In this document: in pieces, positions 49,901 to 55,900 of the stretch
How positions within the stretch are numbered: the first letter of the stretch is position 1
Layout of the letters: every line of letters begins with the position of its first letter
IMG/VR virus record: IMGVR_UViG_2511231131_000002
Reading direction: 5' to 3' (one strand)
Origin: a virus
Taxonomy: Duplodnaviria; Heunggongvirae; Uroviricota; Caudoviricetes
DNA: 62,812 nt
Program-made: the position numbers

Positions 49901-52900
49901 TGTGCCCTTATCATCTCAAGCGGTAGATTTACTCAATGAACTCAAGATCATGACAGGGAACTATCGTTATGTTTTTCCAGGGCGGAACGATCCGAATAGG
50001 CCAATGAGCGAAGCGAGTATAAATCAAGCCATTAAGCGTATTGGGTATGGAGGAAAAGTCACTGGACATGGTTTTCGTCATACCCTTTCTACAATCCTGC
50101 ATGAGCAAGGTTTTGAGAGTGCTTGGATTGAAATCCAGTTGGCTCATGTAGATAAAAATTCTATTAGGGGGACTTATAACCATGCTCAATATTTTAGTGG
50201 AAGGAAGTCTATGATGGACTGGTACAGTAATTTGATATTTGAAAGACTAAAAAGGAGTTAATTTGTGTCTCAACCACTTTCGGAAATATTGACATGGGAT
50301 GATAAACAATGGGAGGTATTTGTCCATGATTGGCTTATTGTCTGTAAATCAGATGATTACCCGTGGAGCGAACGTTTGGGAGGAGCTGGAGATAAAGGTA
50401 GAGACGTTGTTGGATATAAATCGGATCCTAACGTAGAAGGTTATTCTTGGGATAATTATCAATGCAAACTGTACAAAAAAAGTTTAGGGTTCTCTGATGT
50501 TGTAGTTGAGTTTGGAAAACTTATCTATTTTACTCTGAATGGTGATTATCCCATCCCTCAGAAGTACTTTTTTGTGGCACCCTATGATTTATCTACTACA
50601 TTTTCTAATTTATTGAAAAATAAAAACGAGCTTAAAAAAGCAGTCCTTGATTCATGGGATTCAGCAATTTCAAAAAAATAACTAAAAAGATTGATATTCC
50701 ATTAGATGATGAAATAAAAAAATATATTGAGGATTTTGATTTTAGTATTTTTTACTCTCTACCCTTATCATTGATTTTAAATGATATTGCAAATACACAC
50801 CTTTATTTTAAGTACTTTAACGAGCTGTATGTCGTGAGAATCCCTCCAAATGAAATTCCAACATACAATTCAAAAAAAGAGTCTGTATATGTTAATGCAC
50901 TGCTTCAAGCCTATTCAGAGCATGGAAATAAAACTTATAGTTCTTTCTTAGAGCTTGATGATCCATACAGACGACACTTTAATAATAGTAGAAATGATTT
51001 TTATTTTGCATCTTCGCTTGAGGTTTTTGTCCGCGAAGTATTTAAAGATGATGTATTCAAAGCATTGAAATGTTACATTTCATCTTCAATTGAACCCGTC
51101 TTTTATGAAGACCATAATTATGCATTTATTAGGTGTAATGCAGTCTTGAAGCAGGCTGTTCTGACACCAATTGCACATTCAGTACTATCAAAAATATGTG
51201 AAGCAAATGATAAAAAAGGAATATGCCATCATTTGGTTAATGATGGTGAAGTAATTTGGACGGTGAGATAATGGTTAGAATTTATAATTCAAGTTTAGAA
51301 GTGGCATGTCGAATAGCGAAAGTGCTCGTCGCTATTTATCCTTCTTCATTAAGCCTTGAACGGCTTATTTGTTTTGATTTTATTTTAGTAAATCTTAAGG
51401 ATTTTTTACCTGAAGAGATTAGTCTTCATCCTCCAATACCCCGTAGAGATGCTCAGTTAGCCCTAAAACGAGAGATTGTTTTAGAATCATTGGCTTTGTT
51501 GCAAGGCTATGAACTAGCCTCAAAAATTTATACACATCGTGGTTTTGTATATAAAGCTTCTGAAAAAACATATGCATTTACAAATTCTCTACATAATGAA
51601 TATGTTGCGCAGATGGAGCATAATATAAATTTGGTGGTTAAGTTATATAGTGATATTCCTGATGAGCAGTTGCAATCAATTATAAAAAATAAAATTGGCA
51701 AATATGATATGGAATTTAATTATGAATGACAATTTTTTTACGTTCAGAAAAATAAAGGTAACCGGATTCAATAAATTAGATACTATAATTGAATTTGGTT
51801 CTAAATTGACTATTTTATATGGTGGTTCTGACTCTGGAAAAACATACATATATTATTTGATTCGATATTTATTAGGGAGTGAAAAACTAAAAAATAAAGA
51901 TATCGATCATGCTCAAGGTTATGATTTAGCCTATCTGGAATTTAATTTTCAAGGTAGGGTAATGACAATTGAGAGGTCTCTTCAGGATAGCGCCCATTAC
52001 AGATTATATGATTCGAGCATTGAAAATGTTAGTGAAGCTAATCTGTTGATGGTTTTTTCCAAAAGTGCTTCGTCTAAAAAGAGTTTTTCATCATACTTTT
52101 ATGGTAGGTTGAATTTCAAAGAGGCTAAAGTAAGAACAAACTTAAGTAATACTCTTCATAAATTTAATCTTAATAATGTTTTTGAATTTTTTTGTATTGA
52201 TGAATTAAGAATGTTAACTGAGAAGTCGTTAATTCTTTCTGATATTCCTAGCGAGGAGACAAAAAGAAAGTCTGAATTTAAATTCCTTTTAACTCAGAGA
52301 GATGATACTAACTCCTTAGCAGAAAAACCAAATAAAAAAGCAAGATATTTTTTAAAAAATCAAATTGCAAATATTTATGAGGAATTGAAAGCGCAATTAA
52401 TTTATCCTGAATATGATCAAGTCATTGTTTCAAGAGAACTTGAGAAAGTAGAGCAAGATATTGAATCATCGAAAGATATATTGAAAGGTATTGTTGATGC
52501 ACTTGATGATAAGAAGCAATTATTAAAAGAGTTAAGTGATGAATTATATTCAATCAGTGACAGGGAAAAATACTTATCATTACTCATTGAAAGATTTAGT
52601 CTTCTTAAAGACCAATACTTTATAGATCTACAAAGAATAGATGTTGTATCACAGGCGAATTTCTATTTAAATAATTTTGCAGATATTTATTGTGAGTTCT
52701 GTAATACACCGCAAAAAAAAGAAAATGAAATATCATATGATGATTGTTTTTTGTCGTGTAATGCAGAAAAATTGAAAATCAAAAGCCAGCTGAAAGGATT
52801 AATTGAATCAATCGGATCTAATGTTCGCGAACATGAATTAATTATGTTAAGAAAAAATGATGTTAATGAAATTTATCAAGCAGAAAAAGTGATTTTAAGA

Positions 52901-55900
52901 CGTTAGAAGATAAAAATATAAAACAATACATTCATCTCTTGAATCACTTTATGAATATAAAGACAATCTTTTAATGGATCACACAAAACATAGCATTCTA
53001 TCCTCATTACAAGATAAAGAAGATGATGTTGACGAACTTAAATACTCCGCCGAGGACTTTGACTCCTTAACAGTAGCTGATTTGTATGATATAGAAATAG
53101 CGATGCAAGACTTTTTGAATGATATAAATTTTGAAAATTCTAAAGATAACAAAGTGCGATTTGACGAAGATACATATGACTTTAATATCAATGGGAAACG
53201 CCGAGGAATGTTTGGTAAAGGTACCCGTGCAGTAATGCATGCTATATTTACCATTTGCTTTGCGGAATTTTTATCAAGAAAAGGGAATCCATTCATTGGA
53301 TTTGTTGTGCTTGATAGTCCATTAGTGACGCACTTTGATAAAGATAGAGGGGTTTCTCTATCGGATGTTAATAGCGTCAGTCTCAGTGATTCATTTTATC
53401 ACGCATTAATCAAAAGGGACTATAATTTCCAGATTGTAATTCTTGAGAATAAAGGTCCGACGTTCCAAATAAAAATTAATGATGCAAATAAAATCCATAA
53501 CTTAAATAAGAATGGAAGCTCTGGTTTTTATCCTGTTTAATACATTAAAAATATAACTGCTAATTGGGGTGCTCGAAATTATATTTCGTTTCGAGCGCTC
53601 AGTTCATTTCTAAATAATTTGCAAAATTATTTTGGGTACTTTCGCCTCTACACTTCCTTCGGGTGGTTCCACAATAATGGATCTCACCGGCGTTTGATAT
53701 TTTATAATCTAACCCCTTAGCGCGCGCAGCCCCCCACGCCTGCCCGCTTCGCTTAACAGACTGGTTTTCATGCATTCCGCAAATCGTCTCAGAAGCCACC
53801 ACACAAGGGCTTTCGCGTCAAAAATGGTGCATGAGAATCATGCGTTTTCATGCGCTATAGACATGCACTCATGCGCTCTCAGGCCAGCCAGGGAAAAGGC
53901 GTAAAAAATCCCAGTACTGGACCGGGATTACGTGGGCTTTTTTTGCTAATCAGACAGGAATTTGCTGACGGCTTGACAGCTTTGACGCGGAGCCATAGCG
54001 ATTGAGAGTTTGCTGTTGTTTTTCCGGCATTTGTGCTTTCTCTGATTCCTGTTCATTGCGCCGGGGCTTCATGATTATCGTATCCACACTTTCCAGTGCG
54101 GTAAATGTGTAGGAACATTCAAGATTCTGGCACTGATACCATGAGCGTTTAACCGATGGTGCTTCATAGGCGGAGGTTCTGGCGTGTGCCGTCGTACCGC
54201 ATTCGGGACATTTAAGTGCCATTAATATTACTCCTGCATGCCGTTAATGTAATCCAGACGTTGCTGAAAGCGCAGTTGTTGTGCAGGGGTGTAAGAGCTC
54301 TGGCAATCACGAACCATCATGGGGTCAGGCATCACACCGGATTCATCCAGAATCATACGATAATCCCCGGCAATTTCAGGCGGTGTTATTGCCAGCTGGC
54401 GAACCAGAGCATTGCGTAATATACGGGACGCAACGTCAACCCCTCCGCGCCCCTTCAGGAACGGAGCCAGTGCAGATGTCAGGGCTGCTCCATTCGCCTG
54501 CATAAAATTGCTGAGAGCGTCTTCTGTGCAGGCCTCCATCAGTTGATGCTGCGAGTAAATGCATTCGCGCGCAGCACAGTTAATTTGCCATTTCAGCACA
54601 TCCAGATGTTCCCGCTGTAATTCGAGCTGTCGAGCATAATCTGCTGGTTTTTCCATGGCAGTGAGGAGTGATTCTATCTGTTGTTCAACGGCTTTTCGGC
54701 TCTCACTATGTCCAGCCCACAGAATACGGGCATTTCTAAAACTGATAAGCGCTTGGTCTGGAGTGACTCGGGCCATCATACTGCTTTCTCCTTCTCAGCA
54801 CGTTCCTGACGAACCTTCATTTTATGCATAGCTGCTGGAGAGAGTTTATTACTGAAATCCAGACGGGCCGCATAATCCGGGGCAACTCCCGCCAGTTTAA
54901 ACACGGGGTCCTGTTCGGGCATCGCATCGTTAGTCAGAGCCGGTCTGGTGATATGTTTATGAATAAAATCTTTCAGCAGTGTGTCCGGGTCATTAACTGA
55001 ATGCACCACACCGACAACTGCGCTGGCTTCCCTGCCCATTGTTGATTTGAGCAGGCTTAGTGTCTGGATTAGTGCTTTTCCATGCGACTGCATAAAATCT
55101 TCCCAGATTTGTTTTGCGCGAATACCCACAAGGGTGTCGTGCGCGTGGATATACTTTCCGGCTAATTCCGCAGCCTCCTGCGGCAAAAGTGCATTTTCGC
55201 TTTCCTGAGCCGCCAGCAGCTCATCAAAATCCTCAAGCGTTTCTCGTCCCAGCGCAATTTCCGTGCGCAGTTTTTTCATTTCCTTTGAGACTACGCCCTG
55301 ACTTTCACGAAATAGCGTGCGCCACTCCTCATTCAGGGCGTTCGTCGTGGCTTCCATTTCAGCGCGGCGCTGGCGGATTGTCGCAATATTATCCGCTGCC
55401 GCTTTTTGCTGACGACGTGCTTCAAGCCATGCAGATTTGGTGGCATTCACTTTCTCAAGCGCCTGTTGCGTCGAAACAGGGATAGAAATTTCAACGATCG
55501 GGTTATTGTTCTGTTCTGGGATTGTCATGTCAGCACCTAGTGGTTTGTCGTGGTGTCAATTGTGCTGTGATGCATACAAAGCTGCCATTGAACGCCATTG
55601 TGCGAGCGACAAGACAAAGACCTCTTTTGGCTAGCCAGAAAAGGCCTCGTTTAACTAAGTCTGTTTCAGACTTACCTTAACTATTCACTACTATTCACTT
55701 AGGTAAAAAAAATAGGTAATACAGAAGGTTATAAGGTGAAGGGTTGGCATGGCAGTATTCATCGACTGTTCATAACTGTTCACATGGGAATAAAATTATT
55801 TATGGTATTTTTTCATAATGGGTGGTTTTTTTATTCCTCGTAGCTATTTGTTTTTTGCTCCTCACCACTATTCACCCTTATTCAGGAGTATTCAACAGGC

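What the first reader, a model, noticed from the sequence alone, without database searches (positions are those of the whole stretch)
50265..53540. Uncharacterised translationally coupled cassette in the int–psu variable region of a P4-like satellite: candidate novel anti-phage system
Between the P4-type integrase (49080-50261) and psu/ogr (53950-54779) lies a ~3.3 kb AT-rich insert of five ORFs on one strand. Seen in sequence: ORF A starts 3 nt after the int stop with a strong RBS; B to C and C to D overlap stop/start (TAATG and ATGAATGA); A carries a D...D...QxK nuclease-like motif; D carries Walker A GGSDSGKT and a long coiled-coil; E carries a Walker B-like FVVLDSP. From established knowledge, the int–psu interval of P4-like satellites is a recognised hotspot for anti-phage defence cargo, and nuclease + small protein + ABC/SMC-type ATPase is a recurrent architecture of defence systems (for example the ABC-three-component class). 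Inference: this is a defence system, possibly a divergent ABC-3C-like system, that I cannot match to any named family from the sequence.
Basis: partly seen in the sequence, partly recalled or inferred. Interest (0 to 1): 0.85.

Follow-up and report, generated by a model that had tools for sequence, protein, structure and literature searches.

The report
Frameshift-broken Lamassu defence cassette
The five ORFs are fragments of an already named three-gene anti-phage system (Lamassu, also called ABC-3C) carried by a P4-like satellite in E. coli O55:H7; three single-base deletions break it, so it is a known system in decay and not a new one.

Summary
In detail: five same-strand ORFs in an AT-rich 3.3 kb insert between a P4-type integrase and ogr/psu.

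The ORFs are not five genes and not unnamed. PADLOC and Pfam identify lmuA (ORFs A+B), lmuC (ORF C) and lmuB (ORFs D+E) of a short, type II Lamassu (ABC-3C) system.

Intact orthologues exist in Proteus mirabilis (89% nt identity), Pantoea alhagi, Serratia and Xenorhabdus. They encode 335, 152 and 606 aa proteins. The Pantoea and Serratia copies sit in the same int–ogr hotspot.

The window differs from the Proteus and Pantoea copies by exactly three indels, each a lost A in an A-run (50672-78, 52884-88, 52912-16).

None of about 309 E. coli records has the lmuA site repaired, and none has both lmuB sites repaired. O157:H7 copies carry further lesions. Substitutions within the lineage look neutral.

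This exact sequence (CP038295) was published in 2024 as "Lamassu-var" with only a weak plaque-size effect, and the frameshifts were not mentioned.

Verdict: a known system, most likely a recently inactivated pseudogene cassette. Interest is low. The main value is as a caution about that published construct.

The parts
48872..48917 (+). 46-nt duplicate of the 3' end of tRNA-Thr (thrW). It marks the junction between the upstream lambdoid prophage and the P4-like satellite and is the left attachment site of the satellite.
   Evidence: Exact match to window 1399-1444, part of the tRNA-Thr gene at 1369-1444.
49080..50261 (+). P4-type tyrosine integrase
   Evidence: Pfam Arm-DNA-bind_3, Phage_int_M and Phage_integrase. 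RefSeq CDS WP_001130496.1.
50265..51271 (+). lmuA, the Lamassu effector: an N-terminal PD-(D/E)xK nuclease domain plus CTD6. It is split into ORF A (50265-50681) and ORF B (50654-51271) by one frameshift.
50672..50678 (+). Frameshift site 1: an A7 run where the intact orthologues have 8 nt at this position. The zero frame reads TCA AAA AAA TAA.
   Evidence: DNA alignment with intact Proteus and Pantoea lmuA. None of 309 E. coli records has A8.
51271..51729 (+). lmuC, the intact 152-aa middle component (MC2)
   Evidence: Pfam MC2 3.2e-30, 105 bits against a 26.9-bit cut-off. PADLOC LmuC 2.8e-36. Same length as the orthologues.
51722..53540 (+). lmuB, a Rad50/SMC-like ABC ATPase of 606 aa when restored. 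It is split into ORF D (to 52906) and ORF E (from 52974) by two frameshifts.
   Evidence: PADLOC LmuB model positions 3-385 match D and 428-608 match E. The restored protein matches positions 3-608 of 610, E 1.2e-116. tblastn with Xenorhabdus LmuB shows the frame change. Intact 606-aa homologues exist in Proteus (87% identity) and Pantoea (75%). The Walker A lysine K40, C324-x-x-C327 and D532-S533 are invariant.
52884..52888 (+). Frameshift site 2: an A5 run where the Proteus orthologue has A6 (Pantoea also has one more base). The length varies within E. coli: A6 in DEC5B and PV15-279.
52912..52916 (+). Frameshift site 3: an A5 run where the Proteus orthologue has A6 (Pantoea also has one more base). 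The deletion appears to be shared by all E. coli copies.
53567..53600 (+). Terminator-like hairpin with a 13-bp stem, 27 nt after the lmuB stop
   Evidence: The hairpin region is conserved in the Proteus locus: similarity runs to window 53614.
53950..54222 (-). ogr/delta-like zinc-finger activator, a core gene of the satellite
   Evidence: Pfam Ogr_Delta 9.7e-17.
54228..54779 (-). psu, a core gene of the satellite. The sid-like gene follows at 54776-55528.
   Evidence: Pfam Psu 4.7e-42. The next ORF matches Psu at 7e-10.

Best explanation
The region is one short (type II) Lamassu / ABC-3C anti-phage operon, lmuA-lmuC-lmuB. It is carried as cargo in the int–ogr/psu hotspot of a P4-like satellite integrated at thrW in E. 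coli O55:H7.

How an intact system works, taken from published Lamassu structures and not tested here: an LmuB2–LmuC complex sequesters monomeric LmuA. LmuB senses DNA ends or phage replication intermediates. LmuA is then released and oligomerises through its C-terminal domain. Its N-terminal nuclease degrades DNA, and the infection is aborted. In this subtype the effector is a PD-(D/E)xK (Mrr/Cap4-like) nuclease followed by CTD6.

In this window the operon is inactivated. A single A has been lost from each of three A-runs. One loss splits lmuA into ORFs A and B, and two split lmuB into ORFs D and E. Only lmuC is intact. The decay is recent and continuing: there are no other lesions here, but O157:H7 relatives carry additional ones.

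Shown here: the family assignment, the three indels, the intact orthologues, the absence of a fully repaired allele in E. coli, and relaxed selection. Inferred: loss of function, and the Lamassu mechanism.
For: - Family assignment. PADLOC LmuA, LmuC and LmuB models and Pfam CTD6 and MC2 match far above threshold. Fragments A+B and D+E cover consecutive parts of single models. The restored proteins match end to end.
- Intact orthologues of 335, 152 and 606 aa occur in Proteus mirabilis, Pantoea alhagi, Xenorhabdus and Serratia. The Pantoea and Serratia copies lie between a P4-type int and ogr.
- Indels. The DNA alignment with the intact Proteus operon (89.3% identity) has exactly 3 gap columns, all single-A losses in A-runs. 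Adding the three As back gives 1008, 459 and 1821 nt. These are the orthologue lengths, with no other stops, and dN/dS is about 0.1.
- No repaired allele. 0 of 309 E. coli records have A8 at site 1, and 0 of 309 have both lmuB sites repaired. O157:H7 copies add a nonsense codon at 52353, an IS1203 insertion and further 1-nt deletions.
- Relaxed selection. Within the lineage there are 9 nonsynonymous or nonsense substitutions against 2 synonymous. This equals the neutral expectation of 0.80 and differs from the between-species ratio (p = 0.004).
- The ATGs of ORFs B and E have no Shine-Dalgarno sequence.
- All 80 retrieved LmuA relatives are continuous in one frame.
- The mechanism is taken from PMC12663957.
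Against: - A 2024 paper reports that this very sequence, window 50265-54222 cloned from CP038295, reduces plaque size of T2, T4, T6 and RB69. Some activity may therefore remain.
- All three lesions are single-A losses that a -1 slip on an AAA lysine codon could in principle correct. Site 1 is a canonical A_AAA_AAA heptamer followed directly by a stop codon.
- The coding signature is otherwise intact.
- N- and C-terminal halves of Rad50-type ATPases can assemble when co-expressed (general knowledge, not tested here).
- No expression or phenotype data were generated here.
Confidence: 0.85

Rival explanations
1. The cassette is still a working Lamassu. It is expressed at a deliberately low or phase-variable level, because ribosomal -1 slippage or transcriptional slippage on the A-runs restores full-length LmuA and LmuB in a fraction of products.
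For: - All three lesions are one missing A in an A-run, and each needs the same -1 correction.
- Site 1 is A_AAA_AAA followed by TAA.
- The length of site 2 varies between closely related strains.
- A weak T-even plaque-size phenotype was published for this exact sequence.
- No other lesions are present in this copy, and dN/dS against the orthologues is about 0.1.
Against: - Orthologues and 80 of 80 retrieved relatives encode single ORFs at these positions.
- There is no stimulatory RNA structure 3' of site 1: the fold is weaker than shuffled sequence, z = +1.5.
- Sites 2 and 3 are only A5 and are not X_XXY_YYZ heptamers.
- LmuB would need two successive rare slips.
- O157:H7 lineages accumulate nonsense, IS and further indel lesions, and substitutions are neutral.
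- The published construct has no promoter and starts at the GTG without its ribosome-binding site. No catalytic-mutant control is described in the sections read.
Confidence: 0.07
2. The five fragments are a functional split-gene variant. The separate polypeptides assemble non-covalently: the LmuA nuclease domain, LmuA-CTD6, LmuC, and the N- and C-terminal halves of LmuB.
For: - The published phenotype.
- Effector-less LmuA-CTD clades of short Lamassu exist (PMC12663957).
- Every fragment keeps its invariant residues.
Against: - The ATGs of ORFs B and E lack a Shine-Dalgarno sequence.
- About 24 residues of the descending coiled coil would be missing between D and E.
- The pattern of further decay and neutral substitutions in sister lineages argues against function.
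- No split arrangement is seen in any relative.
Confidence: 0.05
3. The frameshifts are homopolymer sequencing errors, and the real genome carries an intact system.
For: All three sites are A-runs. The run at site 2 and another at 52851 differ between assemblies.
Against: - Sites 1 and 3 are in the deleted state in all 309 complete-genome records.
- Three independent assemblies are 100% identical to the window over the cassette.
- The ORF B fragment cluster has 692 member sequences. No full-length LmuA above 67% identity was found in the 5.8-billion-protein collection.
Confidence: 0.02
4. One reading: a novel, unnamed defence system of five genes.
For: NCBIfam gives no hit, and RefSeq labels three of the five ORFs 'hypothetical'. 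PDB sequence searches find nothing.
Against: Pfam and PADLOC matches are strong. The sequence has been published under a name. Orthologues show a three-gene architecture.
Confidence: 0.01

Closest known systems
'Lamassu-var' from E. coli O55:H7 TB182A (CP038295 4116517-4120474), Domainator paper, Nucleic Acids Res 2024 (PMC11754643)
   Same: It is the same DNA. CP038295 4117199-4120474 is 100% identical to window 50265-53540 (hit H3), so the cloned interval corresponds to window 50265-54222. The paper describes it as the most frequent occupant of int–Psu hotspots in E. coli (259 of 910 regions) and as related to type II Lamassu.
   Different: The paper does not mention frameshifts, pseudogenes or truncation: a text search found zero occurrences. 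It treats the locus as a functional system of 3 to 9 CDSs. The analysis here shows three genes broken by three 1-nt deletions.
Short (type II) Lamassu, e.g. Vibrio cholerae DdmABC (Lamassu Vc-Cap4) and Ec-Lipase (PMC12663957)
   Same: - Gene content is LmuA, LmuC and LmuB.
- LmuB is about 600 aa.
- Walker A fits Gx4GK[ST] and Walker B fits hhhhD[QSTE] (here FVVLDS).
- One CxxC zinc-hook motif is present.
- LmuA consists of an N-terminal effector plus a C-terminal domain.
   Different: - Sequence relatedness to solved Lamassu proteins is too low for phmmer or hmmsearch against the PDB.
- The effector is an Mrr/Cap4-like PD-(D/E)xK domain followed by CTD6, and LmuC is of the MC2 type.
- The copy in the window is frameshifted.
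ABC-three component (ABC-3C) systems of Krishnan, Burroughs, Iyer and Aravind, the source of Pfam CTD6 (PF20282) and MC2 (PF20288)
   Same: ORF B matches CTD6 at 7.7e-30 and ORF C matches MC2 at 3.2e-30, both far above the gathering cut-offs. The ABC ATPase partner is adjacent.
   Different: None in kind. ABC-3C and Lamassu are two names for the same class of system.
Intact orthologous cassettes in Pantoea alhagi (L010) and Serratia marcescens (L006, L007) P4-like satellites, and in Proteus mirabilis (L009)
   Same: - Gene order is the same. Gene lengths are identical in the Pantoea and Proteus copies (335, 152 and 606 aa) and close in Serratia (334, 159 and 609 aa).
- The GTG start sits behind AAAAGGAG directly after int, and the position is the same int–ogr hotspot at proA/thrW.
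- Nucleotide identity is 89% for the Proteus copy and 79% for the Pantoea copy.
   Different: Those copies have uninterrupted reading frames. The window has three single-A deletions.

Membership tests
Lamassu (short / type II; ABC-3C) | LmuB: an SMC/Rad50-like ABC ATPase of about 600 aa with Walker A Gx4GK[S/T] | tested here: met
   PADLOC LmuB E 1.2e-116 over model positions 3-608 of 610 for the restored 606-aa protein. GGSDSGKT is present, and G34, G39 and K40 are invariant. The length criterion comes from PMC12663957.
Lamassu (short / type II; ABC-3C) | Walker B of the short type, hhhhD[Q/S/T/E] | tested here: met
   FVVLDS is present. D532, S533 and P534 are invariant in 20 homologues.
Lamassu (short / type II; ABC-3C) | CxxC zinc-hook at the coiled-coil apex (0-2 copies in short LmuB) | tested here: met
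   C324-E-F-C327 is present, and both cysteines are invariant. The coiled coil itself was not modelled.
Lamassu (short / type II; ABC-3C) | LmuC middle component encoded between or next to lmuA and lmuB | tested here: met
   Pfam MC2 scores 105 bits against a 26.9-bit cut-off. PADLOC LmuC 2.8e-36.
Lamassu (short / type II; ABC-3C) | LmuA: an N-terminal effector domain plus a conserved C-terminal domain | tested here: met
   PADLOC LmuA 7e-89 end to end for the restored protein. Pfam CTD6 7.7e-30. The N-terminal domain has a REase fold.
Lamassu (short / type II; ABC-3C) | Uninterrupted reading frames for all three genes, i.e. a potentially functional system | tested here: not met
   Three 1-nt deletions relative to intact orthologues. 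The locus belongs to the family by descent but is a pseudogenised copy.
Lamassu (short / type II; ABC-3C) | Confers anti-phage or anti-plasmid protection that depends on the Walker A and effector catalytic residues | not testable with these tools
   Only a published plaque-size reduction for T-even phages is available. No catalytic-mutant control is described in the sections read.
Mrr-type LmuA effector (as opposed to Cap4 or another PD-(D/E)xK nuclease) | Significant match to Mrr_cat (PF04471) or closest fold match to Mrr-like nucleases, with a D...(Q/E)xK catalytic motif | tested here: inconclusive
P4-like satellite with a defence hotspot between int and psu | Core genes int, psu, sid, delta/ogr, alpA, ash/epsilon and alpha primase, with the cargo between int and psu/delta | tested here: met
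   Pfam: P4-type integrase domains, Ogr_Delta, Psu (twice), Phage_AlpA, Phage_ASH, DUF5375, and primase-helicase domains (Zn_Ribbon_Prim, Toprim_3, D5_N, Pox_D5). A partial tRNA-Thr repeat lies at 48872-48917. The right attachment site was not found. The published report gives only about 31% identity between this cluster's Psu and P4 Psu.
Programmed -1 ribosomal frameshift gene | Slippery heptamer in frame, a 3' stimulatory structure, and conservation of the two-frame arrangement in orthologues | tested here: not met
   An A_AAA_AAA heptamer is present at site 1. There is no downstream structure, z = +1.5. All orthologues are single-frame. Sites 2 and 3 are not heptamers.

The most novel reading that the evidence does not exclude
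The frameshifted operon is not dead. It would be a throttled or phase-variable abortive-infection system in which -1 slippage on three lysine-codon A-runs yields trace amounts of full-length LmuA and LmuB. That would be enough for the weak T-even phenotype reported for this exact sequence. It would make this a natural example of a toxic defence system kept in check by multiple homopolymer frameshifts in the O55:H7/O157:H7 lineage.
Probability: 0.06. Interest if true: 0.6.

Novelty: already known. Interest (0 to 1): 0.15.

Why it matters
As a discovery lead it does not matter much. The system is a named family, and this very locus is already in the literature.

Its modest value is corrective, in two ways.

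1. The published "Lamassu-var" construct and the 300 or so O55:H7/O157:H7 copies carry frameshifts in lmuA and lmuB. This includes the most frequent int–Psu hotspot cluster reported for E. coli. The weak published phenotype should therefore not be taken as the activity of an intact system. A version with the three As restored would be the proper test article.

2. The locus is a clear case of a defence system decaying in place inside a P4-like satellite hotspot. A 2026 survey (PMC13586616) reports that such defence pseudogenes are rare, making up less than 1% of P4 pseudogenes.

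Tried and rejected
- NCBIfam gave no meaningful hit for any of the five ORFs.
- Sequence searches of the PDB found nothing credible. I tried restored LmuB, an LmuA profile and LmuC. Solved Lamassu proteins are too divergent for this method.
I modelled ORF A alone instead.
- My first reconstruction of the second lmuB frameshift placed it at about 52920-26 (reasoning). 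Alignment with the 89%-identical Proteus operon moved it to the A-run at 52912-16.
- Gene calls of 145 aa and 201 aa for CTD6 proteins in Proteus (L008) and Pantoea (L010) suggested recurrent lmuA truncation. Translation showed both are intact 335-aa genes with a missed GTG start, so I dropped the idea of recurrent frameshifting across species.
- A programmed-frameshift stimulator downstream of site 1 was not found.
- The right attachment site of the satellite was not found by repeat search. ARAGORN finds no complete tRNA in 40000-62812.
- The promoter scan gave no more hits than shuffled sequence, 20 against 19.6, so the promoter of the cassette remains unassigned.
- Supplements of PMC13586616 are not held. 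I could not check whether its untested-positive "Lamassu missing a known effector" is this locus.

Full report
**Where the window comes from.** The cassette at 50265-53540 is 100% identical to E. coli O55:H7 RM12579 (NC_017656.1 350086-353361), DEC5D and TB182A. It is at least 99% identical in 309 of 5426 complete E. coli genomes. All listed records that carry a serotype label are O55:H7 or O157 strains. The window corresponds to NC_017656.1 299822-362633. It contains, in order:
- proA and tRNA-Thr (thrW, 1369-1444);
- a lambdoid prophage with type III secretion effector cargo;
- a 46-nt repeat of the tRNA 3' end at 48872-48917;
- a P4-like satellite.

The satellite encodes a P4-type integrase (49080-50261), ogr/delta (53950-54222, minus strand), psu, a sid-like Psu paralogue, AlpA, Ash, DUF5375 and an alpha-type primase-helicase.

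**The observation.**
- Five same-strand ORFs lie in the interval.
- GC is 27-37%, against about 50% in the flanks.
- ORF A starts with GTG 3 nt after the int stop, behind AAAAGGAG.
- The TAATG and ATGAATGA overlaps are there.
- The D…D…QxK, GGSDSGKT and FVVLDSP motifs are there.
- These motifs fall on invariant alignment columns in homologues.

**What it is.** Profile searches name it at once.
- ORF B matches Pfam CTD6 of ABC-3C systems (7.7e-30), and ORF C matches MC2 (3.2e-30).
- In PADLOC, ORF A matches positions 10-140 of a 336-position LmuA model, and ORF B matches positions 141-333 of the same model.
- ORF C matches LmuC (2.8e-36).
- ORF D matches positions 3-385 of a 610-position LmuB model, and ORF E matches positions 428-608.

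The five ORFs are therefore fragments of three genes. RefSeq already labels B and C as ABC-three component system proteins.

**Intact relatives.** Searching with the A+B fusion found single-chain homologues of 334-337 aa, led by Xenorhabdus bovienii at 67% identity. The only close E. coli entry was the B fragment, a cluster of 692 member sequences. The fusion aligns with these homologues without a gap at the junction. Searching with a reconstructed LmuB found intact 606-aa proteins in Proteus mirabilis (87% identity) and Pantoea alhagi (75%).

The genomic context of the intact copies is informative.
- Serratia marcescens and Pantoea alhagi carry intact lmuA-lmuC-lmuB directly after a P4-type integrase and before ogr/psu, next to proA. 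That is the same hotspot of the same kind of satellite.
- The Xenorhabdus copy is in a prophage.
- The Proteus copy follows about 900 nt of integrase remnant.
- Short gene calls for lmuA in Proteus and Pantoea turned out to be missed GTG starts; both genes are intact.
- A scan of species-representative genomes found at least 568 LmuA relatives across bacteria and a few archaea. The 80 retrieved are each one continuous frame.

**The lesions.** Aligning the cassette with the intact Proteus operon (89.3% nt identity) and the Pantoea operon (78.7%) gives exactly three gap columns. Each is one A missing from an A-run in the window:
- A7 at 50672-50678, in lmuA;
- A5 at 52884-52888, in lmuB;
- A5 at 52912-52916, in lmuB.

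Adding the three As back gives genes of 1008, 459 and 1821 nt. These are exactly the orthologue lengths, with no other stop codons. dN/dS against the orthologues is 0.06-0.12. The restored proteins match the PADLOC LmuA and LmuB models end to end (7e-89 and 1.2e-116). All invariant residues are retained: K40, C324/C327, D532/S533, and D43/D47/Q66/K68. The inactivation is therefore recent.

**Is it a pseudogene or a trick?**
- Site 2 varies. It is A6 in DEC5B and in O157:H7 PV15-279.
- Other lineages add more damage. O157:H7 has a TTA-to-TAA nonsense codon at 52353. PV15-279 has an IS1203 insertion in the 5' end of lmuA and 1-nt deletions at 50616 and 51739. DEC5B has an extra A at 52851.
- Among four sampled E. 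coli copies there are 9 nonsynonymous or nonsense substitutions against 2 synonymous. This equals the neutral expectation (0.80 of sites) and differs from the between-species pattern (Fisher p = 0.004).
- The internal ATGs of ORFs B and E lack a Shine-Dalgarno sequence, whereas A has a strong one and C a moderate one.
- Site 1 is formally an A_AAA_AAA slippery heptamer followed by TAA, and the B frame is -1. However, there is no downstream stimulatory structure (z = +1.5).
- Sites 2 and 3 are not heptamers, and LmuB would need two successive slips.

Taken together this is ordinary, progressive decay by homopolymer slippage in AT-rich DNA. The cassette contains 29 A-runs of 5 nt or longer.

**Mechanism (inferred from the literature).** For short Lamassu systems, cryo-EM work shows that LmuB2-LmuC sequesters monomeric LmuA. 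The complex senses dsDNA ends and phage replication origins. LmuA then tetramerises through its C-terminal domain to activate the nuclease (PMC12663957). That paper's criteria for short LmuB are a length of about 600 aa, Walker A Gx4GK[ST], Walker B hhhhD[QSTE] and 0-2 CxxC motifs. The restored protein meets all of them. An intact version of this cassette would be expected to work the same way, with a PD-(D/E)xK nuclease as the killing module.

**Prior publication.** The Domainator paper (PMC11754643) found "Lamassu-var" to be the most frequent int–Psu hotspot cluster in E. coli, with 259 of 910 regions. It cloned CP038295 4116517-4120474.
- CP038295 4117199-4120474 is the 100% match to window 50265-53540 (H3). 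The insert therefore equals window 50265-54222.
- The insert starts at the GTG of ORF A without its ribosome-binding site, includes ogr, and was placed in a vector without promoters.
- The words frameshift, pseudogene and truncation do not occur in the paper.
- A 2026 survey states that defence pseudogenes are rare in P4 hotspots. This locus is a counter-example that is fixed in a whole pathogenic lineage.

**Verdict.** It is wrong about novelty and about gene structure. The locus is an already named and already published Lamassu system, and here it is a recently inactivated pseudogene cassette. Residual activity through slippage or fragment assembly cannot be excluded, but it is unlikely.

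Noticed in passing
window 1369-48917: Two elements are integrated in tandem at thrW. A lambdoid prophage of about 47 kb carries type III secretion effector genes (NleG, an EspW pseudogene, EspM2, NleB and an LRR effector pseudogene at 47757-48449). It sits between the intact tRNA-Thr (1369-1444) and a 46-nt duplicate of the tRNA 3' end (48872-48917). The P4-like satellite follows.
   Followed up: partly
window 60282-61238 (- strand): A 318-aa ORF lies just downstream of the satellite's alpha primase. It has no Pfam or PADLOC hit. It could be a second cargo gene or could lie outside the satellite, since the right attachment site was not located.
   Followed up: partly
L009 6651-7542 (Proteus mirabilis): The intact Proteus lmuACB operon is preceded by about 900 nt that match the 3' part of the P4-type integrase gene (window 49361-50261), including the AAAAGGAG-N7-GTG junction. 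No integrase gene is called there. This suggests the cassette moved together with the int 3' end, or that the locus is a remnant satellite.
   Followed up: partly
L008 8113-8550; L010 7945-8550: Gene callers truncate intact lmuA to 145 aa and 201 aa because they miss its GTG start. The full 335-aa frame is open from 7543 in both loci. Such calls could make defence-system finders report 'Lamassu without effector'.
   Followed up: yes
CP038295 4116517-4120474 = window 50265-54222: The published Lamassu-var construct begins exactly at the GTG of ORF A, so it lacks the native Shine-Dalgarno sequence and promoter. It also includes the ogr/delta gene on the opposite strand. Either point complicates interpretation of its weak phenotype.
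   Followed up: partly
L011 1-440 (O157:H7 PV15-279) against window ~50230-50300: In some O157:H7 strains an IS1203 (IS3-family) element is inserted at the int/lmuA junction and replaces the start of lmuA (H15-H17, 42, 43).
   Followed up: partly
protein P0147: A 344-aa predicted protein has an MC2 (LmuC) Pfam hit and 95% identity to the N-terminal third of LmuB. It is probably an lmuC-lmuB read-through created by another indel variant of this same cassette.
   Followed up: no
window 53567-53600: A 13-bp-stem hairpin directly follows lmuB and is conserved in the Proteus locus. It is a likely operon terminator. The satellite's cos region is expected somewhere between it and ogr (53600-53950) but was not examined.
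   Followed up: no
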